Source: Endomicrobiales bacterium (GTDB taxonomy: Bacteria > Elusimicrobiota > Endomicrobiia > Endomicrobiales > CAWCFT01). Taken from it: a stretch of 64,000 bases of DNA. The DNA lies in assembly GCA_963794945.1 (NCBI GenBank), contig CAWCFT010000001.1, forward strand, positions 192,001 to 256,000. The letters are read 5' to 3'. The position numbers were made by a program, and so were the translations under genes. Shown here piece after piece: positions 15,671 through 39,674 of the stretch (position 1 is the first letter of the stretch; each line of letters begins with the position of its first letter). Under the pieces are notes generated by a model, which had not been told where the DNA came from, searched no databases, and saw nothing but the letters and a program-made list of their open reading frames with translations.

Positions 15671-15685
15671 AATATTATCTGGCTC

Positions 15686-15768: not shown

Positions 15769-18700
15769 TTAACCGGCAGTAATGATGCCCATTATAGCGT
15801 CAAGCCTGATGTTGTTCCTATTCGCGACGTTGTACCGTTTCACGGGCGTGTCGCTGTCAACGATGTCCATGCATTCTATAAGCCCCGAAATAGAATACAC
15901 GCTGGGGCCGGACATCTCGCCGGCGTTGTAAGGAGCGTTGCCGCTATAAACCTCCGGCACTGTGCCTTCTTTCGCGACGAACAACAGGTTGTTCAAACGG
16001 CGCTTCAATTCTTCTTTCGCGGAAGAGTATGCACTGCCGCTTTTATTCCTGACAAGGCTGAGTTTGGCGTAAAAATATGATGAAAGGAAATACGGCCAGG
16101 CGGCGCCCTGGTAATCCGTGTATCTTTTTTCTTTCGCCGCAGTGGCCATTTCACCGGCTCCATAATAGTTCTCGTTATCCGGAGACAACGACCTCAGCCC
16201 GTACGGCGTGTATAACTGCTTTTCCACCGTATTGACTATCATATCTTTTCTCTCATCGCTTAGAAGGCCGTCGTTTTCACTGAGCGATATAAGCAGCAGT
16301 GCGTGCGGGCGCACGTCGTGTTTTACCGACGCGTTCCCGTCAAGCACGTCATAGGGGTATATTTCACCGTTACCGAAATACCGTTCGTTGATTGAGCGCC
16401 CTGTCTTGAGGCTTAACTCATCATACAGGTTTGACAAGCTGGGCTCACCGCCAACATTGTTCAGGTCGCGTGCCGCACACAAGGCGTTATAGAACAAAGC
16501 CTGTATCTCAACCGGTTTGCCGCCGCGCGGCACAGTTAGACGACCGCCGTACTGAGTATCCATCTGTGTTGAATAGTCCGGCACAACGACAAGGTGGTCG
16601 TTCTTATCCATGTGAACCGCACCGGCCTCTTTCATGTAGCACTGCATTATCCTGTTAACGACCGGAAGCTTTTCCCTGATATATTCGTTCTTGGCAGCAT
16701 CATGGGCCGTGCAGTAGTACCGGTTGAGGACTTCAATGAACCAGAGCGGCGCGTCAGAAGACGTGTAATCGCCGGATCCATCCTGCCGGATCATGCCGGG
16801 TATCATCCCGTCGGCATTCTGCAGGCCGGCCAGATAAGTGAGTATCTTTTTTACTTCCTCATACCTTCCGGTAGAAAGCAGGGCGCCCGAAAGCCCCATG
16901 AGTTTAGCCCGCATATCGCCGAGGCCGTTTTCCGCGTACTCCACGGTGAGGTGAGCGCTGTCCTTCCCGTCCCGCAGAAGGTAGGTGTCTTCTTCGGCTA
17001 GAAGTTTTTTCAGGATATCCGAATCCTGGCTAATGTGCCCGCCTGTGCTTTTGACGTAATTTTTATAATACGCGTTCTCGACATATCCTTTTATGTAGCC
17101 GCATAGTTCGTTGTTGGCGCGCAGAACATCCTTTGTATCGTGATACGAGTTCGCTCTCCGCTGCATTGATTTTATGTCGTTCCATAGGGCCGGGGCATCC
17201 TTTTCGGTCAAACCTATTCTATTGAGCGCCAGATATATCTCGGAAAATACGCCTTTTTTTGATACCTGGTACTCAAGCGCTTTTGACAGCTGCCAGCCGT
17301 TGTCGACAAGCGCCGACGCCTCGGACTCCTTTAGCGGCATGGCGCAGCCCCTTGAGTACCCGTCGGCAAAAGCCCGCGCTTCATTGTACGATGAAGGCCC
17401 CATTATCGAGGCCTTTAATGACTCCATGAACGAGATAAGATTGAATTTCCCCGGGACGGATACGTTAATTATGTCCTCTGAACGAACTCTAAAACTGACA
17501 TACGAATCGACACCCGAACCGCCCATCTTGTTTAAGGAATCCACCAAAAGGTTTTGGATCTGATTTTGGCTTATGTCGCCGGTCAACCTGACCCACAGCC
17601 TGCCTTTATTGCCGGCCTCATTACTGACTATCTGTGGGGAGATATCGTTTTCCGATGATACATTAAGCGTTGCATAAATATTTTTAGCCCGCCGCACGTG
17701 CGCGCTCGCGGTGTATCCCGTGTAGGGCTCTACGATGATGAGCGCCGAATGGTTTATGCCGCGTATCGTGTCGGCCAGCTCTGACAACAATATATCAGGC
17801 GTAAAGCCTGTTTCCTTGACAGTGCTGTACGCGTCCATGCCGCTAAGCCTGCCTCCGTCGAAACCGAAGCCTTTGAACCAGAATTCCAGGTTATCCTTAA
17901 ACGGCTTGAACTTAAGAGATTCCATCGCGTGCCAGTTATTAAGGACGGTTTCAGTTCTTACCTGCCCGTTCACGAAGGGCGAAACAAGGTTCCCGGCGTT
18001 GTCCTTAAAATGCTCCGGGTGGAATACCACATCGCACGAATCCCTGCCGGCGAGCACTGTGTAATCCATCAGCACTTTCATGCCTTCTATTTTCTTGTGC
18101 ACTGTGCCGACAGCGGCCTTCAACTGCAGGTAAGCAACGTAATTCATGTATTCATACACGGCACGGTAGTTATCGTATTTAATTTTTGCCGCGTCGTCGA
18201 TGTGCGATTCCCAATATTCCAGTGTTGCCCTGCTGCTCAGCTTCTGGTCAGTTATCCTCTGGTACGCGAGATACCGTGAATAATCCCTTATCTCGTTCCA
18301 CCAGGGCGCATGGCGCTCGAACGCCTGGAATTTCTTCTGGCTGCTCTTGTCGCGCGCAAGCATCTGATACAGCTCGATGCCTGCGTAGAACTGGTTTTCG
18401 AACAAACCGTCGGCGTCTTTAGACCCTTCCGGCCTTTCATTAGGCAATATATTTTTTATTCTGCCGGCCTCGGCCGTTCCCATGCCCAGCCGGTCTGCCT
18501 CCTGCGCCCAATCAATGCGCGAGAGGTCAAAACCATAACTGCTGAAAGAACTATACAGCTGGCTGTCAACCTGCTTGGCTGGAAAGCACGGGTCAAGGAT
18601 CATTGTGTTGATGCCGGCTTTCGAGAGGCGTTCCGCTATTTCGGGGATATCGCTAAAGGTATTTATCGTCACGGCAGGGGCCAGCAGCGACGCGTCCTTC

Positions 18701-19478: not shown

Positions 19479-22400
19479 CTACACTGAAAATGCCTTTGCG
19501 CTCGTATTGGCTGCCTCTTTTAAGAGAGTGATGCCCAACCCGCCCTTGTTTAGCGCGGCAAGCTCCATTATCTGCTTTTTGAAGGTCCCAGTCACTTCGT
19601 AAGAAACCGGCATGACACCTTTGTAATACATCCTGTTCTGTATTTCCTGACGCGTCAACGGAGTTACTATTCTCCCAATTTCCTTGACCGCCGCAAACGG
19701 GCTGGTGACACTACGAAGGGCTCTAATCTCGTTTTTGACAATATCATACCGGTCTTTAACCGGCGCCACCCGGGATAGCGGCGCCCTCGCAGCAACTATC
19801 TGCACCTGAGGCTTAACAACTTCCCAGTTCTTTTTTATGCGGTCGATCATATTTATATCCGCCAGGCTTGTTATCTGGCCGACAATATTTTCCCCAAAGC
19901 CCGACCTGTCAACCAATTCGTGAGCCTGTTGCAGGCTCATATTCTTTTGTGAGACAAAATATTCTTCGAGAAATTCATGCAGGGCAACCACAAGAGCCAG
20001 TGTCTCTCTCTCAATTCCTGGATAAGCGCCGAAAAATTTCTCGTGTATCAAGACATGCAGAACACCGGCTTGATCCCTGTTATATGTAACTAACCTGCCT
20101 AGATCGTAAAACTCGCCGGCCTTTCCACTGCCGTTAAATATTTTATTCTGCGGCAGCCCGCGAACGATATCGATCTGGACTTTATCCAGATAGCCGTTGA
20201 GCCATTTCTGCCCTGTAATATACTTTTTCAGGCTTTCGTCGTTTTGTACCGACATACCGGCCCCGTTGAATATTTCCAGGGCGGTTTCATGCGCCATTGT
20301 GAACCCTTTAGCTGGCACGTCCTCTGCGCGTTTCACGACTTCCTTATCGCCTTCAACCGCCTCGGGCACTGAGCTGATTTTAGCTTTTATCTTTGACTCT
20401 AATCCCAGAGCCATAATCCACGGTGTCCAGTCGAAAAAACCATAAAATGAAGCTGTATGTATATCATCAGCGTCCTTAGCGGGCGTTTCATGTACGCTAC
20501 CGCGCGTGATATATGTTTCTTGAGGGTGCGCCATATAAACCCAGAAATCAAAAGGCATGGAGTTCCCGTTGTCATAACGTTTATTATAATTATCGAACAG
20601 TTTGAGCATAGGGTCGCGGTTTAATTTATTTGGGAACACGTTGCGGGAAATGAGAGACTTGTACATTTTGTTGAAGCCCTCGTGTTTGAGCAGGATGAGC
20701 GGGTTAAATACGTCCTTGGTCATACTGAAACCCCTAGGCTCTTCGCTCAATAGATCCGTAAATTCGTCTTCGTTCTCTTCTTTATCAAAACTGAAAAGCG
20801 TTATGCCGCTCAGAACAGGCATCTGCCGTTTCTTGGAGTTGGTTCTATCATATACTCCTGTCAACATATGGCGTTCCAGCTTATCATTTATCTCTTCAAG
20901 CTTGAAATCATGGTAAAGCTTTTTTATACGTCCGTCGAAGGATTCAAGCACAAGTTTTAGCTTCTGGTCTTCTACCTGGTTAAAATTTGCCCAAGACCCC
21001 ACCAGTGTTATCTCCCCGCTGCGCTTTACCGGGCCCGTGTATTGAAGTTCAACGTCAATAAATATCTTGCCGCCGCGCTTTTCTTCCGCAAGCATACGGG
21101 AGGCTTTATAGCCGTTCATAAGCTGATATTCTATGTTCTTAATATCATTGCCGCTAGGCAACTTTATTTTCTTCGTGCCTGGTATAGATACGGCGCTGGT
21201 AATACTGTGCCACTCGTTTGCGCCCGTGACAAGTATAATAGCGCGGCCGTTCTTCTTAACAGCGGGATAATTCTCAGCCAGGTAACGGTACGCTTCAGCA
21301 TACGCCGCGCCGTCATTTCCTTCATACGGTATTACCTTAAACGGCACATCATTCCTGATAAACCTGTCGCTGCCAGCTGAAAACAGTTGCTCATATTTAT
21401 TGACGTTCTCACTAACTGCCATTATAAGAACAATATCAGCGCTGGGTTTTTCCGATGCCATCTCCTGTTCCCAGGACTTTATAGTGTCTTCATACTCAAT
21501 CCTACGGAACCGTTGCGTGTAGTCTCCCGTAACAAACCCCTCGGTCGCATTATCGATCCCTTTTAATTTGAGCTCATAATGTGTATCGAGGCCTTTAAGG
21601 ATGCAATACCACGAGATACCGAGCGACATAAAACCGAACACGATCAGCGAGATAATAAAGCTGGTAGGAATGCCCGTGTGAAGCAAAGCAATATCCAAAA
21701 TCGAGTACAGGAACACCAGCAGGCCCAATATTCTCGGCAGCGCCCTTCTCAAAGGCCAGCGTTTTCCTATACCTATGGCATTAGATTTATCTGCATGTTC
21801 AATCGAGTCGGCATACTTGTCCGCTTCCTGGATTGTCTGTTCAGGAATATCATATAGTCCGGGGTCTATTGCGTTGCCTATTCCGACAATTTTTCGCACA
21901 CGGTCCTTTGCCCCGAAAGAAGACGATGCCAACCCAAACGAGAAACCGAACCAGAACCTCATAAAACTCATTAAACCGGATGTTTCCAGAAATTTTCCAT
22001 GAGGCATGAAATAGCCTGACATCACGCCAATATTATCAAGCGATGATACCGCACCCATATAATTAACCGCATATTTTGATATTGAATTAAATTCTGCTAT
22101 TATAAGGCCGATCTTCTCCTTTTTTTTCACGTCATTTTCGGGAATTATTTTATACGTTTTTTTTAAAGAATCGATCGTTTCCATTGAACGCTTTTCTAGC
22201 TTGTCGTAAATCCAGTAAAGATTAGCAAGGTTACTCTTAGCTTTCTCCATTTTGAAAGGCGTTAGATTCATGATCAGTTTTACTTTATTTCTGGCCATGA
22301 CAGCGTCATCTTCAGTAAAATTATCCTTTTTTGCCTGCGTGAGACAGTCCAATTCATCGAGATATTTTTCAGCATTTTCGTACGGGGTCATAAGCTCATC

Positions 22401-25400
22401 GTGGCTTGGAGATCCGCCATCAACATTTTCAGGCCTCTTAGGATTCGCCTTATCAACATTATCGACAGGCGTATTGTGCAGGGCTCTGCCGTTTGTAATG
22501 TATGTCTCATGAAGATGAGGCATGTACAGCCAAAACTCGAACGGCACTGAGTTGTCTTTAGCATACAGATTATCATAGGTATCGAGAAGCTTCAGCATTG
22601 GATCGCGCTGTTCTTTATTAGCAAAAATATTCCTTGAGATCAGTGACTTGTACATTTCCTTGGAACCTTCGCGTTTAAGGAGTATCAACGGGTTTACTAT
22701 GTCATTTGTGAGACTGAAATCTTTCGGTTCGTATCTAAGCAGTTCAATAAATTCCTGTTCTTTTTTATGTGTGTCGAAACTGAAAAGCGTTATACCGCTT
22801 AAAACAGGCATCTGCCGTTTTTTTATGTTCGACTTATCGTAAACCCCGGTCAGCATATGGCGTTCTAACTTATCGTTTATATCTTCAAGCTTGAAATCCT
22901 GGTAGAGTTTGCGTACATGTCCATCATTCATACCTAGCACGAGCTTTAAGTTCTGGTCTTCTACCTGCTTATAATCCGCCCAGGACCCGACCATCGTAAT
23001 TTCGTCGCGGCGCCTTATAGGGCCTACATAGTGAAGCGCCGCGTCAACGAATATTTTTCCTCCGCGCCCTTCATCTGCAAGCGCCTTTGCCGCCCTGTAT
23101 CCGTTCATCAGCTGAAACTCTATATTATTGATATCTTCCTTATCGGGCAGTGTTAGATCGTCTATTCCCGGCAATGATACAGTGTTAGTAACACTGTCCC
23201 AGTCATCTTTCCCTGTAATCAGGATTATTGAACGGCCAAATTCATTTGAACCTGGATATGCATCGGAAAGATAGCTGAAAGCCTCACAGTATGCCGCGCC
23301 ATCATTGCCGTTGTACGGGACAACCTTGAACTTGGTATCTTTTCTCACGAATTTGTGACTTTTTTCTTTAAATAGCTCCTCATATTTTCCAACCATACTC
23401 TGTTCTGCCATGACAAGAACTATATCCGCGTTTGGTTTTTCAGAATCCATTTCCTTTTTCCATGTTCTTATGGCGGTCTTGTATTCCATGTCCCTGAATT
23501 TGTCTTCGTGATTATCCGTCATGTAACGTTTCAGGTTCTTATCGATGTTTATTTTTTGATGCTCAGAATATTCATCCACCAGGCCTCTCCAGACCAGGAA
23601 CAATGAAGCACCCGCCGATATACCTATGCCGCAGATGAGGCCCCTGACAAGGTCTAACGTTATCTCTGAGCTTATGAACGCGAAAGAGAAAACAGAAAAA
23701 AGCAGAGTCAATACTCCGATTATCCTGGGCACCGCCCTTCTAAATTTCCAGTACTGCTTGATACCGAAAGATGGGACTTTTTCCTGTTGCACGATCGAAT
23801 CCGCATAATTATCGGTGTCCCGTATAGTATTCTCCTGGTCATCGTAGAGTTCGGGGTCTATTGCATTACCCAGCTTTACAAGTTTTCGCACACTGCTTTT
23901 CATTCGCCCAGATGACACTCTTATGCCTAACCAGAAACCATAAACAATCCTTACAACCGTCATAACAGATATTTTTAATAAGGGCAGCCTTTTTTCAAAT
24001 ATATTATCCTTGTTCATCACGTAATTCGACATCAAGTTCAAATTATCCTGTGATGAGGCTATGTCAGCGTAATTAGAGGCATACTGCGCTATATCGCCGA
24101 ACTCCGAAAGAACAAGATTTAATTCTTCTTTCTTTTCCTCATCGTTGTCAGGTATCTTGCTCTCAGTGAGCTTAAGGATACGCATCGTTTCCAACGACAG
24201 TTTGTACATGTTTCCGTAATTCTTATGCAGCCCTAAAAGGTTCTTATTGGCTTTTTTTACCTCAAACGGCGTAAGATTTATTATCTTCATCGCTTTATTC
24301 AACAAATCGTCAATATCCTGTCCGGAGAAACCGGTGGTTCTGCGTATATTAAGCATGGCTTCCCATTCATCAAGAAGTTTTTCAGATTTCTCTATAGGCG
24401 TAAGTATATCTCCGTTCAGCCCTTCGTTTACAAGACTATTTCCGTTACCATTCGATGCTCCATTGCCGCTTTCGTTGGTTACTTGCGCTTTGTCATCGTT
24501 AGCTTTTTCAGAACCCTGGTAATCAATAGTGCCGCTTGCTTGTTGCTGTGTTGTTGCATTAGATTTGTACAAAGCATCGTTTTTCTTTTTGCGGTACAGC
24601 TTTATGAATACAGACGGCAAAACGAAAGCTGCTGACAGGACAGAAAGTATCAAGGCCCACGAAAGAGCAGGTGTTGTGTAATACTTCGGCAGTACATCTT
24701 TGCCTTCCCTAAGGGACCGGTATATCATCATTAATTCAGGAGGGCCTTTTTTATAAGTAAAAGAACCTGTATTCTTATCTATGATTATATCCTTTGCATG
24801 ATATATCATCGCCAATATGGCATCATACGCCCTGAGAAAAATCCTGTCTTTATGCGGGAGCGGATAATATTCCTGGACCTCATCCCTTTTTAGCTCATTT
24901 TGCCCCTGGAAAATAGGCGCCCGGTTAATATCAACAAGATCATTTTTCCACGGCCCTGTAAGTTTAAAATAGACCGGATAATCAACCCCGTGGTTTACAG
25001 CTCCAAGCTTTCCTGTTGTACCGCGTGTATACCCGTGTTCTACGGTTTGGCCGTTATTTAATTCATACTTGATATTGATCTTTCTTTCTGTTGTAACAGC
25101 ATTTATATCCTCCGACGCGACCAAACGCAGCCCGGCAATGTCGTTGAGGTACAATGACATCCCTAGATATTTCTCCGGAATGATATTGCCGCTTCTATCA
25201 CTGGATGTTTCATACACCATACCGACAAACAGGTTCTCGGCCGGTATTACAATATCGGGTACAGCATTGTCTTTACTGTTCGTTTTGACTAGCCTAGCTA
25301 TCTCATCGCGGACCCTTTCTACTTCTTTTATTATACCTTGCTCACCCTGGCTAATATGTTTACTGTTCTTTAACTCATTGTAATTGAACATCCTTTCAGT

Positions 25401-34400: not shown

Positions 34401-37400
34401 TTGCAATGTTAATAGCGCTGCGCTAAACCAGTGCGCGCGCTCATCGTCACTCAACAATTTATTTTTTTGCGCTTTATATTCCCTGTAAAGCATGTCGACA
34501 GTATCTTTATTGAGTGTCACAAGCGTTATCAGGCAGCTGTCAGGTAATCCCGGGAACCTTGAACGCTCTCCTTCAACCCTTTGCCTGAATTCTTCACTGT
34601 TCTTCATCTGCTGTTTGGCAATTTCTTTGGCTATCTTAATGGAATCAATTAAATTACCCGGGATAACCTTGATCTTTTGGCCGGTAACAGAATCCGTCTT
34701 GTAATACCCGTTGGAATTGACGTGAAGAACGTTCGGCACATTGGTAGCGGCAAAACAAATGTCTCCAGCGACCGGTATATTGTAAGTGGCCTGGCTAAAA
34801 TCCCTGACCATGCTGCCGAACGCGCCGAGCATGCCGCCGAACCCGCCCTGATCGGGCGAAACGGCGAACCTGCCCAGCAGGTCATTCGGCCCATAGAGGC
34901 GTATGCCGTCGCCGGCTATGGGGTGGTCGGGGTTCGCGCCTTCGATCAGTTGCCCCAGCTGCTCAAAGACATGTATATTTACCTTGTGGAACAAAGAAAC
35001 GACCCAGGAAATAGCTTTGTCAAAAAAGCCTAACTGCATCAATACTATAGATATTTCCGTGTTTACGAACCACATGCTGAACCAGCCGGAGGGAAGCCTT
35101 TTCCAGAATTGTGAATTCCCGAATACATCTTTTCGGGAGGCGAGCCTCGCATCTTTTATGGACTGGTCAATGTCTGTCGGTGTTATTATCGGAGGTGTGT
35201 TCTGGTCAATATTGCCGAGAAGGGTTCTGATCTGTTGCTTCTGCACGACACTTGCCTGTATAAACCTGTTTGACTGCCACCGTTTTTTTCCGTCGTGCTC
35301 CATTATGGCGTTAATAATGCCGATAGCCTGAGGGCTGACATTTCCCCTTGCTTTCTGCGCTTCAAGGTAAGCGATTATAGTTGCACCGTCCCACGACCAC
35401 GGCACGAAATTATCGTTGATATCGGAAAACCCATGGGCCGTCCGCAGATTTCTGCTTTCAACTTCCTGCTGCGTCACGGAAGCAGCCGGGATATAATTAA
35501 TGGCCGTTTCTTTGCCATTTTTAACAACCTCCATGTAGCGCTCTTCAAGAGGCAGGTTAAAGAATTCACTATTAAGCAGATTAGCCTTAGCGCTGCGAGT
35601 AGCCCGCGAAAAGCTTCTGACAAAAACAGTTATCAGCGGGCTTAGTATCGCTTGAACTGCAAACCCTTTATAAAGAGTTGACAAAATCGGAATCATCTGC
35701 ATTTTCGCTGCAAGGCCCGGTATAACACCAAGGATATTCATCCCCATCATGGGAACACCAAGATACATCGAAAGCAGATATAGCCCAAGAAGAACAGCCG
35801 GTATCACGGCCATCCTGAAAATATGCCATCCGCGGGCGGTTAGCAAGCCCTGTTTTTCTCCCTTATCGGGCGCCCATTTTACCGCCGCGTAGATATATAC
35901 TGCCGCAAGAATCGGTATGAAGAACAAAGGATTAGACGCAACCAGCGCCAGTATGCTACCTGTTATAAAGGTTGTCACAACAAAGAGATTCGCCCTTTCT
36001 TTAAAGAACCTGAAATGCGCTGCGATAAGCGTTATTTCAAGCACGGGCCTGAGCGTTTCAGCTATCTGCCGCGCGAACATTTTAATTCTGCCTGAAAATG
36101 TTGTTCTTAACTGCTCCTGCTCGCGAAGCTGGTCTACGATAGTCCTGGATATCTCCTGCTGGGAAAGGTAAACTTCCTTGTTCCTGCCCAGCCAGTGGTA
36201 CCTCAAAGCGCTGTCGAGATGTCTTAGGTAAAAACCTCTGAAAAGATGTAAAGCGAACCTTCCTGATACCATGTAAAGCACAGCCGCGCCTGATGATTTT
36301 ATATTAAGCCTGCCCTTATGTATCAAGTCATTCTTTATATTTCTCCACATATCCCCAAAATTCATTTTTTCAATTTCTTCACCGTAATTTTTTTTGGTGT
36401 AGTATGCCTGGTTAAGCTGTTCCAGCCTCTGGTAAACAAGCCACCAGTTTGTTCCGTTTTTACCTCCGGCAAGAAGTTTATCTGCATCGCCGCCCTGAGT
36501 TTGAATAGATTGTCTTACATATTCCTCTCCGCCATATTTCCTGAAAACACGTTCTTTTATTGTTTCGTTTAAAGCTGTTTTCCCGGATATTATTTCATCG
36601 GCCTGGCTTTCCTGCTTGGGTGAGTTAACAGCGCCCCCTCCGGCCGAAGCAGGGGGATTCAAGGCCGAAGTGTTAAACCATGATCCTATCTTTTCAATTA
36701 GTTTTCCTGCCTTATAATCTATCCTGCCGGAATGCCGCAGTTCGGGCATTGCTGACAATGCCGTATTGTAGCCCTTGTTAAATTGTAAAAGCGCGGCGAC
36801 GGAATCCTTTGCGGAACCTGGGTCCACAACGAAAGATTCCGCATAATCGAGGCCATTATCAGGATAGATCCTTTTCAATATTTCCTGAAGTTGAACACGT
36901 TCACGCACTTCAGATTTTAAATAGCAATCTACCGCGGTGCCTGGAAATCCAAGAAATATGCCTAGAATGGAATCACTGATATTTTCGTATTTGTCTGTTC
37001 TTGCTTTACCTGTTGCGAATAGATTGTTAAGCTCGTCAATCTCAAACCCGATTATGTACTGAGAAATAAGCCCGTCTATCTGCTGTTTGTTCATAAAACC
37101 GGACCCCAAACCAAATGGCGCAGTCATTCCCGCTTGCCTGAATTGATCAGCTAGAAAATCTCTATTTTCAGTGAAAACCTTGTTTATTGATTCGATATTG
37201 TAAATATACAGCTCATATTTCCCGGAATAATTGCCGCTCTTTCTTTCCGAAATACATACACCTACCCCAAGTTTTTCAAAAAGTATTTTTGCGTCTTCAC
37301 TTTCATATAGTTTTTTAACGGCCTTCGTTATGATGCCGTAATATCCGGGCTTACCTCCGCCAAATACTGATGCACGAGCCGCACGGCCTTTTACATAATT

Positions 37401-39674
37401 CAGTCCTGAAACATTTAACGTTTTTGCGGTGATCAATTCTTCAAGAAGGGATAAAGATCTAGTATCGAGGCTCCTCAATCTTGCGGCCCTTTCCGCGTCT
37501 TCCGTGTTTTTTCCCCTACCTATCATGGACTTTAATTCCTGTATGCCACGTTCGCCGAGAGCGGCAAGAACTTTGTTTACATTTCCTTCTACGGCCACCC
37601 TTTTTGTCTTACCACTGCTCCAGTTTTCCCTAGCCTTTTTACGCAGCCACCTTACAAACCCGTACGCAACAGCCGCCGCTCCTGCCGTGATCAATACTAT
37701 AACTCCGGCGCTCATCATGCCGTAAGATTGTTGCTGCATAATTGCCGCTGTGCCGGCGTGGGCAAGCATAGGCGAAAGGAATATCAGCCCTAAAGACATG
37801 AATAATCTTAATATGCCGGGCATTTTACTATTCCGTGTAAAATCGTAAGAAATACTAGTTTTATTTATATCTATCGTGTAAATATTTTTACCCGTAGACA
37901 CATTGTAAATACCAGGCTCTTTTGTGGTCACTATCTCCACGCGGCCCGAAATGTTATTCGCCTTCATCCAGGCATTGATCTCTTCCTCGATATCTCGTAT
38001 TGAAAGCTTTTGAGCAGCAGCCCGCCTGGCCCACGCGCCTATCATAATATCTACTGCATCCCGCGGCATCCCGACGTCCAGAAGCACTGGAGCGAAGAAT
38101 GAGTTAACGAACCTGTTCACATTAAGCGTTCCGCTGAAAGTCTCACGGTAAATGCTGTTATCGTATGCAGTGGTTATCGCGGGCATCAAAGTGATGTTAG
38201 AAATAGCTTCTCTATCGAAATACTGAGTAACATCCGAATGGAAACCTCCAGTTACCATGATAATGATATTCTTGTATTGCGCGAGCTTGTCAGCGCTGCA
38301 AAGCTGGTCGGGAGGCTGCTGGGGTAAAGGCCCGGTGTAAGTTTTACCGATATATTCTCTTGCAGCGTTATAAAATATTGAGTTTCTTTCCTTATTTGCA
38401 TCATAAAAACCAAATAATTCATTTTCATGTTCTGTGAGGTAAGATAAAACATCGTTTAATTCGGTGTCATCAATATATTTCTTTAATGTCGCCTTGAATT
38501 TAGAATTATTGCATTTTAAGTACTCGTAATCCTGTGACCCAAGTTTGAGCTGACAGAAATCACCCAGATATTCGTCCATTTCCGACAAAAATAGCATTTC
38601 TTTGTCCAGCAAAGTATCTGCGTGCTTTTCAAGCGCCCTCCGCAGGAAAGCCTTTTCTTCATACAGAAAAGATACTGGATTGATAGAATTTGTTAAACGG
38701 ATATAATCGAGAAATTTGTCAAGGTTCGGGTACGCACGCATGTATGGAGTGTACAACCTGGAAAGTTCTGAAAGTGCCAGATAGTATTCATTTTTGTGCT
38801 CTTTATTTCCTGACAGGGCCACGAGCTTTTCATATGCCCCGAAAGGAGCCTGAGTCTTCAATTCCTCCACATATGCCCTGTGTTCCATGTCAAGCTTGTA
38901 ATAGTTGATAGTTTCATTTACCTGCCTCAGCCTTAGGTACCTTTCGAGGTGCGGGTAACTATGCAGTGAAATGCCGCTTTCGTAGCTCAGCCGTTCAATT
39001 TCCCTATAGTAGGACTGAGGAGCGCCTTCTCTGCTGTTATCAATATATCTTTCATATTTTTTGATCTTCCCGGAAAGATAGTTCTCTTTGAGCTCCCCAA
39101 CCCATTTATGGATCTTCCCGACTTGCCTGCCGTATTCATCCTGAGATGAAAGTATTGAGTTGATCCTCTTTAGATTCTCGTTATATATGTCCCATTTTTC
39201 AAGCCCGAAAAGAATATTATTATTTCGCGTAACGGCGTAGTATTCGGCCCCGGAGATCAGCCCGTTATGGAGCAATCCGTCAAGCAGATATTTCTTCGTG
39301 CCGTTTCCGGGCAATGAGGAAAGAAAGCTTGTATCAACATGGCCCTGCGGTGCTCCTTCTGTAAGTATCGCGGAGACTTTATAGTGGTTGTCTAAATACT
39401 CAATAATGCCGAAGATGTTTTTCTGTACTTCGGGATCGCAGTGCAGGTCTTGAACACAAACTACCAGCGTGTCAGTGTGATACAGCTGTGAATCGATGAC
39501 TTTACCTAATTCATTAGGCACAGGAGATCGGTCTATCACACGTGAAAGCCGGGACGCTGCGGTGTTGTTATCAAGCAGTATCTCCACGCCTTTTAGCGGC
39601 TCGCAAAGCACAAATGAAAAAGCAAACGCGCTAAGTGTTATAAGTGTGACATAGTATTGAATTTTTTTGATCAT
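19479..39674 (-). CDS. Giant multi-domain envelope protein (about 6730 aa as sequenced; about 7970 aa if joined with 15769-19365)
   Basis: 20-kb uninterrupted ORF; N-terminal signal/TM segment, QDLHC..EG..SGAEY..GGFHS domain, TM clusters, beta-rich region, YD-like repeats, internal duplications. Confidence 0.9.
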   Translation of the reverse strand: MIKKIQYYVTLITLSAFAFSFVLCEPLKGVEILLDNNTAASRLSRVIDRSPVPNELGKVIDSQLYHTDTLVVCVQDLHCDPEVQKNIFGIIEYLDNHYKVSAILTEGAPQGHVDTSFLSSLPGNGTKKYLLDGLLHNGLISGAEYYAVTRNNNILFGLEKWDIYNENLKRINSILSSQDEYGRQVGKIHKWVGELKENYLSGKIKKYERYIDNSREGAPQSYYREIERLSYESGISLHSYPHLERYLRLRQVNETINYYKLDMEHRAYVEELKTQAPFGAYEKLVALSGNKEHKNEYYLALSELSRLYTPYMRAYPNLDKFLDYIRLTNSINPVSFLYEEKAFLRRALEKHADTLLDKEMLFLSEMDEYLGDFCQLKLGSQDYEYLKCNNSKFKATLKKYIDDTELNDVLSYLTEHENELFGFYDANKERNSIFYNAAREYIGKTYTGPLPQQPPDQLCSADKLAQYKNIIIMVTGGFHSDVTQYFDREAISNITLMPAITTAYDNSIYRETFSGTLNVNRFVNSFFAPVLLDVGMPRDAVDIMIGAWARRAAAQKLSIRDIEEEINAWMKANNISGRVEIVTTKEPGIYNVSTGKNIYTIDINKTSISYDFTRNSKMPGILRLFMSLGLIFLSPMLAHAGTAAIMQQQSYGMMSAGVIVLITAGAAAVAYGFVRWLRKKARENWSSGKTKRVAVEGNVNKVLAALGERGIQELKSMIGRGKNTEDAERAARLRSLDTRSLSLLEELITAKTLNVSGLNYVKGRAARASVFGGGKPGYYGIITKAVKKLYESEDAKILFEKLGVGVCISERKSGNYSGKYELYIYNIESINKVFTENRDFLADQFRQAGMTAPFGLGSGFMNKQQIDGLISQYIIGFEIDELNNLFATGKARTDKYENISDSILGIFLGFPGTAVDCYLKSEVRERVQLQEILKRIYPDNGLDYAESFVVDPGSAKDSVAALLQFNKGYNTALSAMPELRHSGRIDYKAGKLIEKIGSWFNTSALNPPASAGGGAVNSPKQESQADEIISGKTALNETIKERVFRKYGGEEYVRQSIQTQGGDADKLLAGGKNGTNWWLVYQRLEQLNQAYYTKKNYGEEIEKMNFGDMWRNIKNDLIHKGRLNIKSSGAAVLYMVSGRFALHLFRGFYLRHLDSALRYHWLGRNKEVYLSQQEISRTIVDQLREQEQLRTTFSGRIKMFARQIAETLRPVLEITLIAAHFRFFKERANLFVVTTFITGSILALVASNPLFFIPILAAVYIYAAVKWAPDKGEKQGLLTARGWHIFRMAVIPAVLLGLYLLSMYLGVPMMGMNILGVIPGLAAKMQMIPILSTLYKGFAVQAILSPLITVFVRSFSRATRSAKANLLNSEFFNLPLEERYMEVVKNGKETAINYIPAASVTQQEVESRNLRTAHGFSDINDNFVPWSWDGATIIAYLEAQKARGNVSPQAIGIINAIMEHDGKKRWQSNRFIQASVVQKQQIRTLLGNIDQNTPPIITPTDIDQSIKDARLASRKDVFGNSQFWKRLPSGWFSMWFVNTEISIVLMQLGFFDKAISWVVSLFHKVNIHVFEQLGQLIEGANPDHPIAGDGIRLYGPNDLLGRFAVSPDQGGFGGMLGAFGSMVRDFSQATYNIPVAGDICFAATNVPNVLHVNSNGYYKTDSVTGQKIKVIPGNLIDSIKIAKEIAKQQMKNSEEFRQRVEGERSRFPGLPDSCLITLVTLNKDTVDMLYREYKAQKNKLLSDDERAHWFSAALLTLQNQKNTRIQEQKEIQVQEQNNNQPQKQMLVPEDNRQIDGSHKEFMPSGKVQDNNKIYRSGSKNSIPAEEYEGPEDIGKWFNNELETRMDGIRGSLEMLNFKEYELSRTMMLLNMANTDEKTSQKVMAELKEAFYSLNDAIKHEEIGFAMKKIFDKNGVKYDGNMEPVIKKSGGLVSRLPISSLSFGPNFLYSHQGLKPSLGLAVEADLYNPERRENRNIALLTKDLMELNLKENSLDLIHHFNDINTIISEIEKLDVKAMQDNADMQALYKQALKQREIIQGYIREKGITDNVVKNIDINITSAAKPEDEEASISAFVDESLKHTLNNQRNELADKLITSQITKAKSGLQVKLEVSLPNMQAVTFIIKGNADKLLTKYGAELNQKIEEQKQKLAADILRADLLHSIRNLKNAYLADKSSLDYQLNIALAKNDLKRLTDAGTSESNSVSLKLAFFQGEEPGKLVDNQPQESNASKESSNIKNLESEITYLTEIRDQILLPAEKSGKISEGTKIVVPAGVNPASLFYAGFMDFMSLSGKMKDVLHPHGTEKVRKEMNKKIEEINLMIKQKTDARDVLMANVAKREKGENEPENNIKLKSAGISNGNFIFTYQNTGPPSGKSDLKLYMPGASEMLKVVNGSANLSVNMLNVLYPALQLNPLHDHLSSDSGTLPNLDGSFNGTNQVTPSLAGYAASDVMDKNSTFHWNNNNNLLEQQITTNMTGQSDALGNRHFIQSSTFDQQNQPGSGFTTSKISARGSFLGDRLTYNTDIYSYKNEQYSANGTPMDVTTLKFMPKTTLKFSDTNTGTDINFGAYNAFNANSKYTLSSSQRITMSNNLVMAPWADWALLPAGNQAKDSFTGNYGLVARLYDFTTSLAMKTTPGKTEIANDNIKYFMQFREGWGDITVGAKNLVASRLNPGDANVPPDYNFLNPTNASTLNTVSLNTAREYYVNMKDSKLIGIGPNKGDLIFSYFDADQRLKLDYALYMPAASEALKAVNFGTDMSVKAAGQGQVWAGAMVNNIGLKYTQNINSFSGANKYTANGEVFVNPSKNIALSLGGGVKDGKQGTVSSGAEYNHPGKNLGDYSLQMKADPNGVSIGNSHTWGVSLGVLFHIIKEKNTGNGTAIETGRVMNPMDLSMQADVTPDVARKAQLLSQDNLMQQLLCIPPDFKFGSASPYMQNIEKNLYTLAKTINDNSGYFNAVQAQAEMKTKKEIVNKTEREYVKDVINASKEISDKTRRDEIISVLKRSLQNKPGYLAEYQSLDQFSVAKTEAETLKAKIERYRGRLLGTGDMDTKEINSYSALIAAGYTDKDIAQLLDAKIEVKRILESSPELQAELRPPQEGTEAFESMFIQFLEQKRFENGAATEVLRDNFREEFKYNYSDWKVTYYARQLVARYKEALGRSPGSDSKTVWDNIMRSAWDELRLGKCVSDYTYRVSDEVCGAVKKFGASLGKDVYEVETLRDKQGRILELTGISHEGSKVFKISNDNVMPTLEIFDFPHGSGENTAHSIVYEFKCDDAALGSWIIGKSGSMKPDLIGRIVGDKTYTIERRGNWMRWVDVEGTKFLPGHREIRYGDAYLQTEGDKKFEETFTRKENNDGSYTKSFIKDGIADREETYLWQLEADMPLSTIFHYSEFGVPLVEIFEGQNGMQSKVYLWNEAAGRRGEDPVYVNTYTYDSGLYNRILKTRDNNATGLHEDWNDVSPDGSVFKYRGKITSADGKAVAVKTSTQARYSEERTDTNEDLLAATKDIKTVNLETGKDILKRYDFRGNRIYTETGGFGDNTYIRTLVREYADKRPSETGLINLRTIESEQLTYDKKNNILKTSLGAVNGQTMKQAYTRENVTEGTRTYGETNVLTGADVFVTYSISDESKSKPLYKTEISAMDYNSMKKTTATIKYREDGIIDWEKIRQNELADNSVKQFGSSIGKDVYAVETKRDSEGKILELIATSVNGSRLFRVINDNIIPNIEIYDYSQKDGTAHALLYEFTDAAISKSSIDGLKPGSIGRIVGEKTYRIERPGDSMRWIDVKGTKFLPGHREIRYGEVYQHTDKDKNFEETFVKRENEDDTYTKYYYKAGLIDRTETYLWRLEDEMPVSKIFYSTDYGAPLIEVFEGRDNMESKMYLWDEKTGNRGQNPVFENTYIYDSRYYDRIISTKDNKVTGLHEEWNDVSPNPDNIKFEGKITGPAGALIATIITEQARYSNTRTETKDNMNGNKDIKTMNIITGNEQANKYDFKSNRIYSETYAPGDNTYLRSFVREYDDKRPNEGGWINQRTKENELTIYDQKNRPIIVTSYGAVEGLSLKQSYLRRDITEQINTRGERDIVTGADLSRAYSAYDKAYKYPLYMTEISDIDYTSMRNTVSTVKYREDAEGRENRFVEWIENGFINPLFNAGNFTKTLADGRTLSVTTGLAENNKPLINSAGDYYKTVEYKLLGQKENITLNTDMTPHESVTTSNNGTFVEKKALNARSADGTICNRVEEADGETAVEYLNGFCGSVVSKEKYFNDKRTSRTDYGFKNNKSGEVYFSVLTVNDKLGTETEESRGAHRDGYTQWIETRNKTTKEPVTVLNSNDGITFNGFNYDTKELMDQHALYIGGPINEKTTFTPSANDLNSTRDIKCKEHLYINDDGTAIMVSEYPKTKNNRAEQYEFYGGVLNESRETGPDDFVIVNKTRLNASGTEYKLDYYNGVSEIHTMAYPGDIPAEIKASDISGVNIYSMQNNGNKNTYTYANGDVSEQALKYRGGPVETMTTWSSPSRNTVKTTGTVRFDEKNRSWGLELIYPNSNSKHFENKDFLWRDGPIVKDEVFSAGDLSKGNFSGNKSKVRVSLTESGFNSSDNKLHQVSHYYGEHDLTAEIRAEDYTLLFMNGPPAEGANTATIREYRYKYDGTRVPSNKETVTYKVDIDYPQPNYVYRTETVYRTDNGIRMPYFDSKQQLKNILGAWKPVSQELRYQKWMQPAYGLLKTSFAYDEKKTGLPLENTADYINPTGAPVTLRTKTERMFNYNELKNSKHISQGEQGIIKEVERVRDEIARLVKTNSKDNAVPDIVIPAENLFVGMVYETSSDRSGNIIPEKYLGMSLYLNDIAGLRLVASEDINAVTTERKINIKYELNNGQTVEHGYTRGTTGKLGAVNHGVDYPVYFKLTGPWKNDLVDINRAPIFQGQNELKRDEVQEYYPLPHKDRIFLRAYDAILAMIYHAKDIIIDKNTGSFTYKKGPPELMMIYRSLREGKDVLPKYYTTPALSWALILSVLSAAFVLPSVFIKLYRKKKNDALYKSNATTQQQASGTIDYQGSEKANDDKAQVTNESGNGASNGNGNSLVNEGLNGDILTPIEKSEKLLDEWEAMLNIRRTTGFSGQDIDDLLNKAMKIINLTPFEVKKANKNLLGLHKNYGNMYKLSLETMRILKLTESKIPDNDEEKKEELNLVLSEFGDIAQYASNYADIASSQDNLNLMSNYVMNKDNIFEKRLPLLKISVMTVVRIVYGFWLGIRVSSGRMKSSVRKLVKLGNAIDPELYDDQENTIRDTDNYADSIVQQEKVPSFGIKQYWKFRRAVPRIIGVLTLLFSVFSFAFISSEITLDLVRGLICGIGISAGASLFLVWRGLVDEYSEHQKINIDKNLKRYMTDNHEDKFRDMEYKTAIRTWKKEMDSEKPNADIVLVMAEQSMVGKYEELFKEKSHKFVRKDTKFKVVPYNGNDGAAYCEAFSYLSDAYPGSNEFGRSIILITGKDDWDSVTNTVSLPGIDDLTLPDKEDINNIEFQLMNGYRAAKALADEGRGGKIFVDAALHYVGPIRRRDEITMVGSWADYKQVEDQNLKLVLGMNDGHVRKLYQDFKLEDINDKLERHMLTGVYDKSNIKKRQMPVLSGITLFSFDTHKKEQEFIELLRYEPKDFSLTNDIVNPLILLKREGSKEMYKSLISRNIFANKEQRDPMLKLLDTYDNLYAKDNSVPFEFWLYMPHLHETYITNGRALHNTPVDNVDKANPKRPENVDGGSPSHDELMTPYENAEKYLDELDCLTQAKKDNFTEDDAVMARNKVKLIMNLTPFKMEKAKSNLANLYWIYDKLEKRSMETIDSLKKTYKIIPENDVKKKEKIGLIIAEFNSISKYAVNYMGAVSSLDNIGVMSGYFMPHGKFLETSGLMSFMRFWFGFSFGLASSSFGAKDRVRKIVGIGNAIDPGLYDIPEQTIQEADKYADSIEHADKSNAIGIGKRWPLRRALPRILGLLVFLYSILDIALLHTGIPTSFIISLIVFGFMSLGISWYCILKGLDTHYELKLKGIDNATEGFVTGDYTQRFRRIEYEDTIKSWEQEMASEKPSADIVLIMAVSENVNKYEQLFSAGSDRFIRNDVPFKVIPYEGNDGAAYAEAYRYLAENYPAVKKNGRAIILVTGANEWHSITSAVSIPGTKKIKLPSGNDIKNIEYQLMNGYKASRMLAEEKRGGKIFIDVELQYTGPVKRSGEITLVGSWANFNQVEDQKLKLVLESFDGRIKKLYHDFKLEEINDKLERHMLTGVYDRTNSKKRQMPVLSGITLFSFDKEENEDEFTDLLSEEPRGFSMTKDVFNPLILLKHEGFNKMYKSLISRNVFPNKLNRDPMLKLFDNYNKRYDNGNSMPFDFWVYMAHPQETYITRGSVHETPAKDADDIHTASFYGFFDWTPWIMALGLESKIKAKISSVPEAVEGDKEVVKRAEDVPAKGFTMAHETALEIFNGAGMSVQNDESLKKYITGQKWLNGYLDKVQIDIVRGLPQNKIFNGSGKAGEFYDLGRLVTYNRDQAGVLHVLIHEKFFGAYPGIERETLALVVALHEFLEEYFVSQKNMSLQQAHELVDRSGFGENIVGQITSLADINMIDRIKKNWEVVKPQVQIVAARAPLSRVAPVKDRYDIVKNEIRALRSVTSPFAAVKEIGRIVTPLTRQEIQNRMYYKGVMPVSYEVTGTFKKQIMELAALNKGGLGITLLKEAANTSAKAFSV
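20505..24410 (-). repeat. Tandem intragenic duplication B (2 x about 660 aa)
   Basis: NLTPF, GNAIDP.LYD, GNDGAAY, INDKLERHMLTGVYD, KRQMPVLSGITLFSFD and ETYIT each present twice. Confidence 0.92.
27285..30075 (-). repeat. Tandem intragenic duplication A (2 x about 470 aa)
   Basis: VKKFGASLGKDVYEVET / VKQFGSSIGKDVYAVET; GTKFLPGHREIRYG and TGLHE.WNDVSP in both copies; each ends KYRED. Confidence 0.92.

What the first reader, a model, noticed from the sequence alone, without database searches (positions are those of the whole stretch)
15769..39674. About 8000-aa trans-envelope mega-protein ending in glucan-processing domains
Seen: a 20-kb ORF whose stop (19479) is overlapped by the open frame of the 1198-aa ORF. 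One added base near 19511 gives ...LLKEADQYERKGIFSVG... and a product of about 7970 aa. Order of regions: signal peptide and QDLHC/GGFHS domain, TM bundle, TolC-like region, beta-barrel-like region, YD-like repeats, TM helix, two TM-containing repeats, an HExxE motif, GH77-like and debranching domains. Inference: one polypeptide combines outer-membrane-like, periplasmic, inner-membrane and carbohydrate-enzyme modules. It may be a polyprotein or a conduit for glycan export or prey/substrate attack, in the style of giant proteins of Omnitrophota/Elusimicrobiota.
Basis: partly seen in the sequence, partly recalled or inferred. Interest (0 to 1): 0.85.

Follow-up and report, generated by a model that had tools for sequence, protein, structure and literature searches.

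The report
Giant membrane enzyme gene, falsely split
This is one very long gene (about 7,970 codons) of an uncultivated Elusimicrobiota bacterium for a membrane-threaded protein that carries sugar-handling enzyme domains; its apparent split in two is most likely a one-base assembly error, and proteins of this general kind are already described.

Summary
A 6,744-codon ORF (19479-39713, minus strand) is followed by a GH77-like/GDE_C ORF whose frame stays open 232 bases back over the giant's stop.

The two are almost certainly one gene of 7,968 codons.
- Four relatives read straight through the junction, three of them from head to tail in single frames of 3,676-4,514 aa.
- Homology switches frame at an A4 run (19518-19521).
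- The downstream frame has no start codon in its first 115 codons, although conserved sequence begins at codon 47-58.
- The assembly holds many other frame breaks, so an indel artefact is the best reading. No reads covered the site.

Domain content found here:
- an N-terminal anchor plus a conserved head domain, with a borderline EreA/ChaN-like fold; the head marks a family of large Elusimicrobiota proteins;
- TM segments;
- about 3,450 aa with no recognisable family;
- two tandem modules, each a TM hairpin plus an FKP-type NDP-sugar pyrophosphorylase fold;
- a tail with a GH77/GH13-like barrel (nucleophile apparently absent) and GDE_C.

The kind is already described in Omnitrophota: giant membrane-threaded multi-enzyme proteins. 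This scan flagged the same kind three times elsewhere in this genome.

The parts
15769..39674 (-). Whole gene as reconstructed: ATG 39674 to TAA 15769-15771, with one base missing near 19518-19521; 7,968 codons
39594..39650 (-). N-terminal hydrophobic helix (residues 22-40, GTG numbering), preceded by K/R-rich residues: a signal anchor or a signal peptide
   Evidence: the AF2 model shows one long helix over residues 2-47 counted from the ATG
37818..39593 (-). Conserved head domain (QDLHC...EG...GGFH): an alpha/beta core with a roughly 280-aa helical insert. The fold is borderline EreA/ChaN-like
37653..37817 (-). Hydrophobic segments 633-651 and 669-687; the second is followed by RWLRKKAR
35619..35993 (-). 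TM cluster (4-5 hydrophobic segments, residues 1241-1365) inside the best-conserved block 1042-1663 (57% identity to the G011 ortholog)
24660..34997 (-). Central region of about 3,450 aa (residues 1573-5018) with no recognisable family. It is inferred to be extracytoplasmic. It includes the part 1664-2451, which the G011 ortholog lacks
27255..30098 (-). Tandem duplication of a 475-aa unit (residues 3206-3678 and 3682-4153, 50-57% identical); family unknown
24603..24659 (-). Single TM helix 5019-5037, followed by KLYRKKKN
22446..24410 (-). Module copy 1 (residues 5102-5756): a helical domain with a TM hairpin, then an FKP-type NDP-sugar pyrophosphorylase fold (module residues about 316-650)
20466..22397 (-). 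Module copy 2 (residues 5773-6416), 38-65% identical to copy 1
19522..20465 (-). Poorly conserved linker holding the lone HExxE (residue 6579); much shorter in the G011 ortholog
19518..19521 (-). A4 run where the frame most likely breaks. One base is missing, and homology brackets the break between 19482 and 19572
18691..19539 (-). Conserved front part of the tail (downstream-frame codons 58-340), no known family. Codons 58-115 of it lie upstream of the first possible start codon
17878..18684 (-). GH77/GH13-like TIM-barrel region. It is a partial Pfam match (profile 7-269 of 465), and the nucleophile position is Ser/Asn
15922..16911 (-). GDE_C (amylo-alpha-1,6-glucosidase type) domain

Best explanation
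The two reading frames are one gene of about 23.9 kb for a protein of about 7,968 aa that passes the membrane many times. The source is an uncultivated Endomicrobia-type Elusimicrobiota bacterium. The break at 19518-19521 is a missing base in an A4 run, most likely an assembly or base-calling error in an assembly that holds many such errors.

The protein belongs to a lineage-specific family of large proteins that all begin with the same head domain and carry varied, mostly cytoplasm-type enzyme domains further along.

Inferred layout:
- an N-terminal anchor and the head domain, probably outside the cytoplasm;
- a cytoplasmic stretch;
- a TM cluster;
- about 3,450 aa of unknown fold outside the cytoplasm;
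- a TM helix at 5019-5037 that brings the chain back inside;
- two modules, each held at the membrane by a TM hairpin and carrying an FKP-type sugar-nucleotide pyrophosphorylase fold;
- a glycogen-debranching-type tail: a GH77/GH13-like barrel that probably lacks its nucleophile, followed by GDE_C.

Most likely mode of action (inference): a scaffold that tethers sugar-nucleotide and alpha-glucan-handling enzymes to the inner face of the membrane. This is the same principle as the 'multi-enzyme metabolic cluster' giant proteins of Omnitrophota.

Shown: one gene, the domain folds and the family distribution. Inferred: the topology, the enzyme activities and the overall role.
For: One gene.
- Relatives of the same order hold head, modules and tail in single open frames: G003 3,676 aa, G007 4,376 aa and G004 4,514 aa.
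- The G004 and G011 proteins align colinearly across the window's junction. They switch from the giant's frame to the downstream frame between 19572 and 19521.
- The downstream frame has no ATG, GTG or TTG in its first 115 codons and no SD-like sequence before the first candidates. Conserved sequence nevertheless starts at codon 47-58.
- The front part of the tail was found in 9 of 122 genomes of the class. Every non-self hit lies in an open frame of 870-4,514 aa.

Artefact.
- In this window AcrB is cut into profile positions 2-629 and 634-1019, in overlapping ORFs of different frames.
- A GltD-like gene is cut between Fer4_20 and Pyr_redox_2.
- An LDH/MDH gene shows only its C-terminal domain, and a Cys/Met PLP enzyme starts at profile position 85.
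- Two of the 7 head domains in the genome are split across frames.
- A paralog on contig C4 is a chain of 5 overlapping frames.
- The 1,250-codon tail has no stop codon, so it has not decayed.

Domains.
- Tail: GDE_C E 5.4e-57 and GH77 E 3.5e-10.
- Head: 217 related stretches in GTDB species genomes. In 55 of the 58 loci I checked the frame stays open to the end of the locus. In 11 of 47 relatives the next 1,000 aa carry enzyme domains such as UDPGP, starch synthase, GGDEF, HD and kinases.

Known kind: Nielsen & Lui 2026, sections 8 and 9 read.
Against: - No read or independent contig covers 19500-19545, so the base itself is unverified.
- Not all breaks in the window lie at homopolymers. The AcrB overlap has no run of 4 or more.
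- The source's own gene caller made a separate 1,175-aa protein of the tail.
- The topology rests only on a hydropathy scan and the positive-inside rule. It is ambiguous around residues 633-687 and 1241-1572.
- The pyrophosphorylase-like domains have no Pfam hit, and their catalytic residues were not checked.
- The GH77-like barrel seems to lack its nucleophile.
- The closest ortholog (G011) showed no match to the GDE_C part.
- About half of the protein (residues 688-5018) has no assigned fold.
Confidence: 0.8

Rival explanations
1. The frameshift is a true mutation in the organism. The tail is cut off, and the giant protein ends at 19479 without its GH77-like/GDE_C part. This would be a recent pseudogenisation or gene split.
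For: The sequence as given carries the stop. No reads were available to contradict it. Endomicrobia include symbionts with many pseudogenes (recalled, not checked here).
Against: The tail keeps 1,250 codons free of stops and is 28-38% identical to relatives along its length, so any such mutation would have to be very recent. Many unrelated, conserved genes in the same window and genome show the same kind of break. That fits assembly error better than simultaneous recent loss of AcrB, GltD-like, LDH and other genes.
Confidence: 0.12
2. There are two separate genes: a 6,744-aa giant protein, and an independent enzyme of about 1,175-1,198 aa of the glycogen-debranching type that starts at GTG 19365 or ATG 19296.
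For: A stop codon ends the giant frame. The source's gene call is a 1,175-aa protein with PF06202 and PF02446.
Against: Conserved, family-wide sequence (codons 47-115 of the downstream frame) lies upstream of every possible start. There is no SD-like sequence. Relatives are fused. No stand-alone relative was seen: the only hit among 8,000 scored candidates of 690-2,198 aa was the window's own protein. That search also missed known relatives, so it is weak. In 122 class genomes all non-self hits lie in frames of 870 aa or more.
Confidence: 0.04
3. The cell uses programmed -1 ribosomal frameshifting, or transcriptional slippage, at the A4 run. It would then make both a short form without the tail and a long form with it.
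For: The shift needed is -1, and it lies at C-TTA-AAA-G, where a Lys-tRNA on AAA can re-pair in the -1 frame (read directly from the sequence).
Against: The site is not a canonical X-XXY-YYZ heptamer. The 97 nt downstream fold no better than shuffled sequence (z -0.86; 39 of 200 shuffles fold at least as well). All four relatives are in frame here, so the feature is not conserved. The assembly has many other breaks.
Confidence: 0.03
4. This is the first reader's model: a trans-envelope conduit or polyprotein with TolC-like and outer-membrane beta-barrel parts, YD repeats and a metalloprotease motif, used for glycan export or prey attack.
For: The protein has a long region that is probably extracytoplasmic (residues 1573-5018) between TM segments. 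The head fold is of a hydrolase type. Giant proteins of Omnitrophota have been proposed to act in prey attack (West-Roberts 2023, abstract).
Against: No OEP/TolC, RHS/YD or peptidase profile hit at E up to 5. There is one non-conserved HExxE and no HExxH. The supposed TolC-like part is missing from the closest ortholog. The sugar enzymes need cytoplasmic substrates and are predicted to be inside (inference).
Confidence: 0.05

Closest known systems
'Multi-enzyme metabolic cluster' giant proteins of Omnitrophota (Nielsen & Lui 2026, bioRxiv 10.64898/2026.06.07.730766; sections 8 and 9 read)
   Same: Both are very long single polypeptides threaded through the inner membrane by scattered TM helices. 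Both carry several cytoplasm-type enzymes, with a sugar and alpha-glucan theme (there: starch synthase, GT1, PGM/PMM, hexokinase). Both contain internal repeats that are old duplications.
   Different: The phylum is different (Elusimicrobiota). At 7,968 aa this protein is below their 10,000-aa catalogue threshold. The domain set differs: FKP-like pyrophosphorylase fold in two copies, a GH77-like barrel and GDE_C. The conserved N-terminal head domain is not mentioned in the sections I read. Homology to any Omnitrophota protein was not tested.
Giant genes of PVC-group bacteria (West-Roberts et al. 2023, bioRxiv 10.1101/2023.11.21.568195; abstract, outline and passages on Elusimicrobiota read)
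   Same: That work reports numerous TM regions, large unannotated stretches that need structure prediction, and carbohydrate-active domains. It lists Elusimicrobiota among the phyla with very large genes.
   Different: No SecA DEAD-like or dockerin domain was found here. That paper gives only counts for Elusimicrobiota. Searches in it for 'debranching', 'glucanotransferase' and 'GH77' found nothing.
Eukaryote-type glycogen debranching enzyme (GDE/AGL; PDB 5d06, 7eim, 8zeq)
   Same: The tail has the same order of parts: a clan GH-H type barrel followed by a GDE_C (alpha/alpha)6 glucosidase domain. A profile of four tails hits these chains at E 5e-16 to 1e-12.
   Different: Only the GDE_C part matches by sequence. 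The barrel is GH77-like by Pfam, not the GH13-type transferase of GDE, and it seems to lack the nucleophile. Here the unit is the C-terminus of a giant membrane protein.
FKP / GDP-L-fucose pyrophosphorylase (PDB 9iis, 9iit)
   Different: Sequence identity is 10-12% and there is no Pfam hit. There is no kinase half. The domain is fused to a helical domain with a TM hairpin. Substrate and activity are unknown.
Erythromycin esterase / ChaN fold group (PDB 6xcq EreC, 2g5g ChaN; 2qgm, 2rad and 5t09 placed in this group from recall)
   Different: The scores are in the range that unrelated models also reach. Foldseek found nothing, and there was no Pfam or PDB sequence hit. The head carries a helical insert of about 280 aa.

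Membership tests
GDE_C / amylo-alpha-1,6-glucosidase (PF06202) | Match to the family profile above the curated cut-off | tested here: met
   193.8 bits against a cut-off of 21, E 5.4e-57, profile 30-352 of 367. TIGR01561 gave E 6e-36 but scored below its equivalog cut-off. A profile of four tails hits eukaryotic GDE glucosidase domains.
GDE_C / amylo-alpha-1,6-glucosidase (PF06202) | Catalytic acid residues of the (alpha/alpha)6 barrel | not tested
   I had no reliable residue map. The motif TPRxGKPVEIQAL is conserved in 4 of 4 tails.
GH77 4-alpha-glucanotransferase (PF02446) | Match to the family profile above the curated cut-off | tested here: met
   39.8 bits against a cut-off of 25, but only profile positions 7-269 of 465 are matched. 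The NCBIfam malQ-type models scored far below their cut-offs.
GH77 4-alpha-glucanotransferase (PF02446) | Catalytic nucleophile Asp on beta-strand 4 (the clan GH-H 'RxD' region; motif recalled) | tested here: inconclusive
   A weak alignment to TreZ (E 0.03-0.1) puts Ser at the nucleophile position. The 4 family members have S, N, S, S there, and only one keeps the Arg two positions before. This suggests an inactive barrel, but the alignment is weak.
FKP/FPGT-type NDP-sugar pyrophosphorylase | Nucleotidyltransferase fold closest to FKP | tested here: met
FKP/FPGT-type NDP-sugar pyrophosphorylase | Sequence-family match and nucleotide- and metal-binding residues | tested here: inconclusive
   No Pfam hit at E up to 5. 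Residues were not mapped.
Erythromycin esterase / ChaN / Tiki-like fold group | Shared alpha/beta fold | tested here: inconclusive
Erythromycin esterase / ChaN / Tiki-like fold group | Sequence-family match | tested here: not met
   No such Pfam family at E up to 10 in 4 members. The PDB profile search gave only one chance-level hit.
TolC / outer membrane efflux protein (OEP) | Match to the OEP profile | tested here: not met
   No hit at E up to 5 in three chunks that cover the giant part. The fold was not tested.
RHS / YD-repeat proteins | Array of YD repeats matching the RHS_repeat profile | tested here: not met
   No Pfam hit. A loose YD pattern matched only 3 times in 6,744 aa.
Zinc metalloprotease (HExxH, or HExxE as proposed) | Conserved metal-binding motif | tested here: not met
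   HExxH occurs 0 times and HExxE once (residue 6579), in a linker that aligns poorly with G004 and is largely missing from G011.
Giant membrane-anchored multi-enzyme proteins (Omnitrophota type) | Single very long ORF, TM helices spread along it, several unrelated enzyme domains | tested here: met
   7,968 aa. There are 11-14 hydrophobic segments. The enzyme domains are two FKP-like folds, a GH77-like barrel and GDE_C. The length is below that catalogue's 10,000-aa threshold, and the phylum differs.
Programmed -1 frameshift site | Slippery heptamer X-XXY-YYZ, a downstream structure, and conservation | tested here: not met
   The site reads C-TTA-AAA-G. The downstream fold has z -0.86. Relatives are in frame at this point.

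The most novel reading that the evidence does not exclude
The head domain may define an Elusimicrobiota-specific system. In it, one polypeptide would physically couple three parts: an extracytoplasmic hydrolase-like head, a surface region of several thousand residues with an entirely new fold, and cytoplasmic sugar-nucleotide and alpha-glucan enzymes. That would make a single-chain machine linking events outside the cell (substrate or partner contact, or self-processing by the head) to glycan synthesis or breakdown at the inner face of the membrane. Each genome would carry several paralogs with different enzyme cargo.
Probability: 0.12. Interest if true: 0.8.

Novelty: new member of a known kind. 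Interest (0 to 1): 0.45.

Why it matters
Elusimicrobiota are reported to be rich in proteins of more than 5,000 aa, none of which could be given a COG function (PMC11573180, passages read).

This case gives such a protein a partial anatomy:
- a conserved head domain that tags a family (217 related stretches in GTDB species genomes, 7 genes in this genome);
- a rare module with an FKP-like pyrophosphorylase fold, with only 150 representatives among 1.84 billion proteins;
- a glycogen-debranching-type tail.

It extends the idea of enzymes strung along a membrane-threaded giant protein from Omnitrophota to a second phylum.

It also gives a practical warning. In error-prone long-read style assemblies such genes are cut into pieces, and the pieces are annotated as ordinary enzymes. 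Here the tail was called as a 1,175-aa 'debranching enzyme'.

Tried and rejected
Reads. The look-up of sequencing runs listed 3 DNA runs, each with 5-10% of the sampled words, and no RNA holder. When laid, their short contigs covered 19039-19189 and 19626-19800 but not 19500-19545, so there is no evidence on the base either way.

Profile searches of the giant part. Pfam at E 0.01 and E 5, and NCBIfam at E 0.1, gave nothing meaningful.

Head domain.
- Pfam at E up to 10 and a PDB sequence-profile search gave only chance-level rows.
- Foldseek against PDB gave no match at E up to 0.001.

475-aa repeat unit. A profile against PDB and Pfam gave nothing.

ESM Atlas. Residues 2860-4900 and 1042-1663 gave no usable hit.

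The search for homologous proteins.
- The middle region (640-5040) found only the two relatives already known, P0003 and P0004.
- The front of the tail found only the window's own protein in the 690-2,198 aa range. It missed known relatives, so this is weak evidence.

RNA fold downstream of the A4 run: unremarkable.

Ideas rejected: polyprotein processing, a TolC-like duct, YD repeats and a metalloprotease motif. The membership tests give the reasons.

Not done. My two structure jobs went to the head and to the module. Residues 688-5018 and the front of the tail remain unfolded, so 'beta-barrel-like' could not be tested.

Literature. Four searches (and a find in West-Roberts) found no description of this family, its head domain or a GH77/GDE tail on a giant protein. 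bioRxiv supplements were not open to me and may list such architectures.
Full report
**1. What is in the sequence**

On the minus strand an ORF of 6,744 codons runs from GTG 39713 to a TAG at 19479-19481. A likelier start is the ATG at 39674. A second ORF runs from 19365 to 15769. Read from stop to stop, the second frame is open from 19710. It therefore overlaps the end of the giant ORF by 232 bases. The second frame lies one base behind the first, so one added base joins them into 7,968 codons counted from the ATG.

**2. One gene or two**

Searching 41 genomes of the same order with the downstream frame gave matches in 10 of them, the window's own genome included. In three relatives the match lies at the end of a very long single open frame:
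- G003, 3,676 aa;
- G007, 4,376 aa;
- G004, 4,514 aa.

BLASTP shows that the G003 and G007 frames contain, in order:
- the N-terminal domain of the window's giant ORF (34-35% identity over about 600 residues);
- copies of its TM-containing repeat;
- the GH77-like/GDE_C tail.

The G004 frame starts further along. It aligns from window residue 2873 through the repeats to the tail.

The closest ortholog, in G011, has a 5,177-aa piece (P0004) that is 41-57% identical to the window. It is followed by an 870-aa piece that spans the window's junction without a break.

With tblastn, the G004 and G011 proteins follow the giant's frame as far as ...LAALNKGGLGITL. They then continue in the downstream frame from KRGSQYERKGIFSVGNIV... 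This puts the break between 19572 and 19521. An A4 run at 19518-19521 lies exactly there.

The downstream frame has no ATG, GTG or TTG in its first 115 codons. No SD-like sequence precedes the first candidates, at 19365, 19296 and 19278. Conserved sequence, however, begins at codon 47-58. An independent downstream gene would therefore lose a conserved part of its protein.

The front part of the tail (753 aa) was found in 9 of 122 genomes of the class. Every non-self hit lay in an open frame of 870 to 4,514 aa.

I conclude that this is one gene.

**3. Artefact, mutation or recoding**

No public reads decide the matter. Three runs held small parts of the stretch and none covers the site. The indirect evidence favours an assembly error.

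In this window:
- AcrB is cut into overlapping ORFs of different frames, with Pfam profile positions 2-629 and 634-1019;
- a GltD-like gene is cut between Fer4_20 and Pyr_redox_2;
- an LDH/MDH gene shows only its C-terminal domain;
- a Cys/Met PLP enzyme starts at profile position 85.

In the genome:
- two of the seven head domains are themselves split across frames;
- a paralog on contig C4 is a chain of five overlapping open frames (3,053, 1,110, 1,531, 2,792 and 1,549 aa). The head lies at its start and a GH77/GDE match at its end.

Earlier notes of this scan on three other pieces of the same genome reached the same view. I checked that claim independently as described above.

The tail has 1,250 codons without a stop, so it is not a decayed pseudogene.

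Programmed frameshifting is unlikely for three reasons:
- C-TTA-AAA-G is not a canonical slippery heptamer;
- the downstream RNA folds no better than shuffled sequence (z -0.86);
- the relatives are in frame.

One point counts against a simple homopolymer-error picture: the AcrB break has no homopolymer of 4 or more.

**4. Organism and family**

A pattern and tblastn scan of GTDB species genomes with the head-domain alignment found 217 related stretches. Of the 79 loci kept, 77 have titles that name Elusimicrobia or Endomicrobia-type MAGs. This count includes Candidatus genera of rumen origin that I place there from recall. One title names a Nanoarchaeota MAG and one a Bacteroidota MAG.

I checked 58 of the 79 loci. 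In 55 of them the frame stays open from the head to the end of the locus, which is 1,000 aa or more where the full downstream flank was available. The head always sits near the start of the frame.

In 11 of 47 relatives the next 1,000 aa hold Pfam enzyme or signalling domains. These include UDPGP, starch synthase catalytic domain, NTP_transf_2, GGDEF, HD, Metallophos, cytidylate kinase, protein kinase, LMW phosphatase and LysM.

The head is thus the common N-terminus of a family of large proteins with varied cargo. This genome holds seven of them.

**5. Anatomy of this protein**

*(a) N-terminus.* Residues 22-40 are hydrophobic and follow a K/R-rich start.

*(b) Head, residues about 41-632.*
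- Forty sequences share invariant Q75 D76 L77 H78 C79, E106, E144, E339, R430 and G476 G477 F478 H479, numbered from the ATG.
- The AlphaFold model (pLDDT 85.0, pTM 0.76) is an alpha/beta core with a long helical insert.
- Foldseek found nothing at E up to 0.001.
- That is a consistent group, but the scores are at a level the tool says is common without true relationship. I call this a lead only.

*(c) Hydrophobic segments.* They lie at 633-651, 669-687, 1241-1365 (four or five segments), 1554-1572, 5019-5037, 5324-5363 (a pair) and 5988-6033 (a pair).

*(d) Residues 688-5018.*
- No Pfam, NCBIfam, PDB-sequence or Atlas match was found.
- The block 1042-1663 is the best conserved (57% identity to G011).
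- Residues 617-1041 and 1664-2451 are absent from that ortholog.
- Residues 3206-3678 and 3682-4153 are a tandem duplication of 50-57% identity.

*(e) Two modules, 5102-5756 and 5773-6416.*
- They are 38-65% identical to each other.
- A profile of seven copies found only 150 representatives at E up to 0.001 among 1.84 billion proteins. Most of these are proteins of more than 1,000 aa.
- The model (pLDDT 85.6, pTM 0.86) has a helical half that contains the TM hairpin.

*(f) Linker.* It is poorly conserved and holds the only HExxE.

*(g) Tail.*
- A conserved region of about 280 aa with no known family comes first.
- A GH77-like barrel follows (Pfam 39.8 bits, profile 7-269 of 465).
- In that barrel the position aligned to the TreZ nucleophile is Ser or Asn in 4 of 4 family members. 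The alignment is weak.
- A clear GDE_C domain ends the tail (E 5.4e-57). A profile of four tails hits the glucosidase domain of eukaryotic debranching enzymes.

**6. How it most likely works (inference)**

I applied the positive-inside rule to the hydrophobic segments. The rule is consistent with this course:
- the N-terminus is inside and the head is outside;
- the chain returns to the cytoplasm after 669-687;
- it passes a TM cluster and leaves again at about 1554-1572;
- it stays outside for about 3,450 residues;
- it re-enters at 5019-5037, which is followed by KLYRKKKN.

The two TM hairpins then keep the pyrophosphorylase-like domains and the tail in the cytoplasm but at the membrane. This suits enzymes that use nucleotide sugars and alpha-glucan.

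The topology is ambiguous at 633-687 and around the TM cluster, and no dedicated predictor was run.

The simplest functional reading is a membrane-tethered scaffold of sugar-nucleotide and alpha-glucan enzymes. Nielsen & Lui (2026; sections 8 and 9 read) describe the same kind of protein for 'multi-enzyme metabolic cluster' giant proteins of Omnitrophota. They found sugar-metabolism modules in 916 long proteins, 94% of which had TM helices or a signal peptide.

What the outer 3,450 residues and the head do is unknown.

**7.

Right:
- one polypeptide of about 7,970 aa;
- the site of the missing base, to within about ten bases;
- the conserved N-terminal domain;
- the TM segments and the two TM-containing repeats;
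- the glucan-enzyme tail;
- the guessed phylum.

Not supported:
- a TolC-like region;
- YD repeats;
- an HExxE catalytic motif;
- hence the picture of a conduit spanning both membranes.

The beta-barrel claim remains untested.

**8. Novelty**

Very large genes are reported for Elusimicrobiota only as counts (West-Roberts 2023, passages; PMC11573180, passages; PMC12057145, passages). In my searches I found no description of this head domain, of the FKP-like module, or of a GDE-type tail on a giant protein. I could not see the bioRxiv supplements.

The kind, a membrane-threaded giant multi-enzyme protein, is known. This scan has already met it three times in this very genome. I therefore rate it a new member of a known kind, of moderate interest. 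The main value is the partial anatomy and the family marker. The most novel reading still open is given in the section on the most novel reading.

Noticed in passing
window 43737-46995 (-): An AcrB/ACR_tran gene is cut into two overlapping ORFs of different frames (Pfam profile 2-629 and 634-1019). The 80-base overlap holds no homopolymer of 4 or more.
   Followed up: partly
window 60370-61771 (-): A GltD/SudA-like gene is split between its Fer4_20 part (61265-61771) and its Pyr_redox_2 part (60370-61350). The overlap holds a G4 run.
   Followed up: partly
window 51749-52264 (-), 5205-6206 (-), 52771-53151 (-): Further truncated genes. An LDH/MDH gene shows only its C-terminal domain. A Cys/Met PLP enzyme starts at profile position 85. 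An MCP signalling domain fragment covers profile 74-167. These are probably more frame breaks.
   Followed up: no
window 57624-59565 (-): HdrA-like FAD/4Fe-4S ORFs overlap by 179 bases (58237-58415). They stand next to an MvhD-like (FlpD) gene and NiFe-hydrogenase genes (54299-57655). This looks like a hydrogenase/heterodisulfide-reductase-type cluster, possibly also broken.
   Followed up: no
window 40032-43140 (+): An operon is transcribed divergently from the giant gene. It holds a GNAT Acetyltransf_5 gene (OlsB-like by recall), a PlsC-type acyltransferase and a GT21/GT2 glycosyltransferase. This may be a set for making an amino-lipid or glycolipid.
   Followed up: no
window 15596-15671 (-): tRNA-Arg(ACG) lies about 100 bases after the giant gene's stop, on the same strand.
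   Followed up: no
window 8555-10783 (-): A 742-aa TPR protein ends in a partial CHAT domain.
   Followed up: no
G000 contig C4 333228-363064 (-) (L095, L096): A second giant gene of the same head-to-GH77/GDE-tail design. It reads as five overlapping open frames (3,053, 1,110, 1,531, 2,792 and 1,549 aa), roughly 10,000 aa if joined. It may be one of the pieces the scan reported earlier.
   Followed up: partly
L011 1297-1299 (G004 contig C4): An in-frame TAA interrupts the G004 relative. The 432 codons before it and the 4,514 after it are colinear with window residues 2474-2908 and 2873 onward. This could be a nonsense change, an error or a gene boundary. A further head-domain gene starts directly after the 4,514-aa frame, so the giant genes stand in tandem.
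   Followed up: no
L014 9126-9179 (G011 contig C3): The G011 ortholog leaves and re-enters its frame within about 55 bases, which points to two compensating indels. Its tail showed no match to the GDE_C part.
   Followed up: no
L011 6616-10638: The second halves of the two module copies in G004 are identical in protein sequence. This is either a very recent duplication or an assembly collapse.
   Followed up: no
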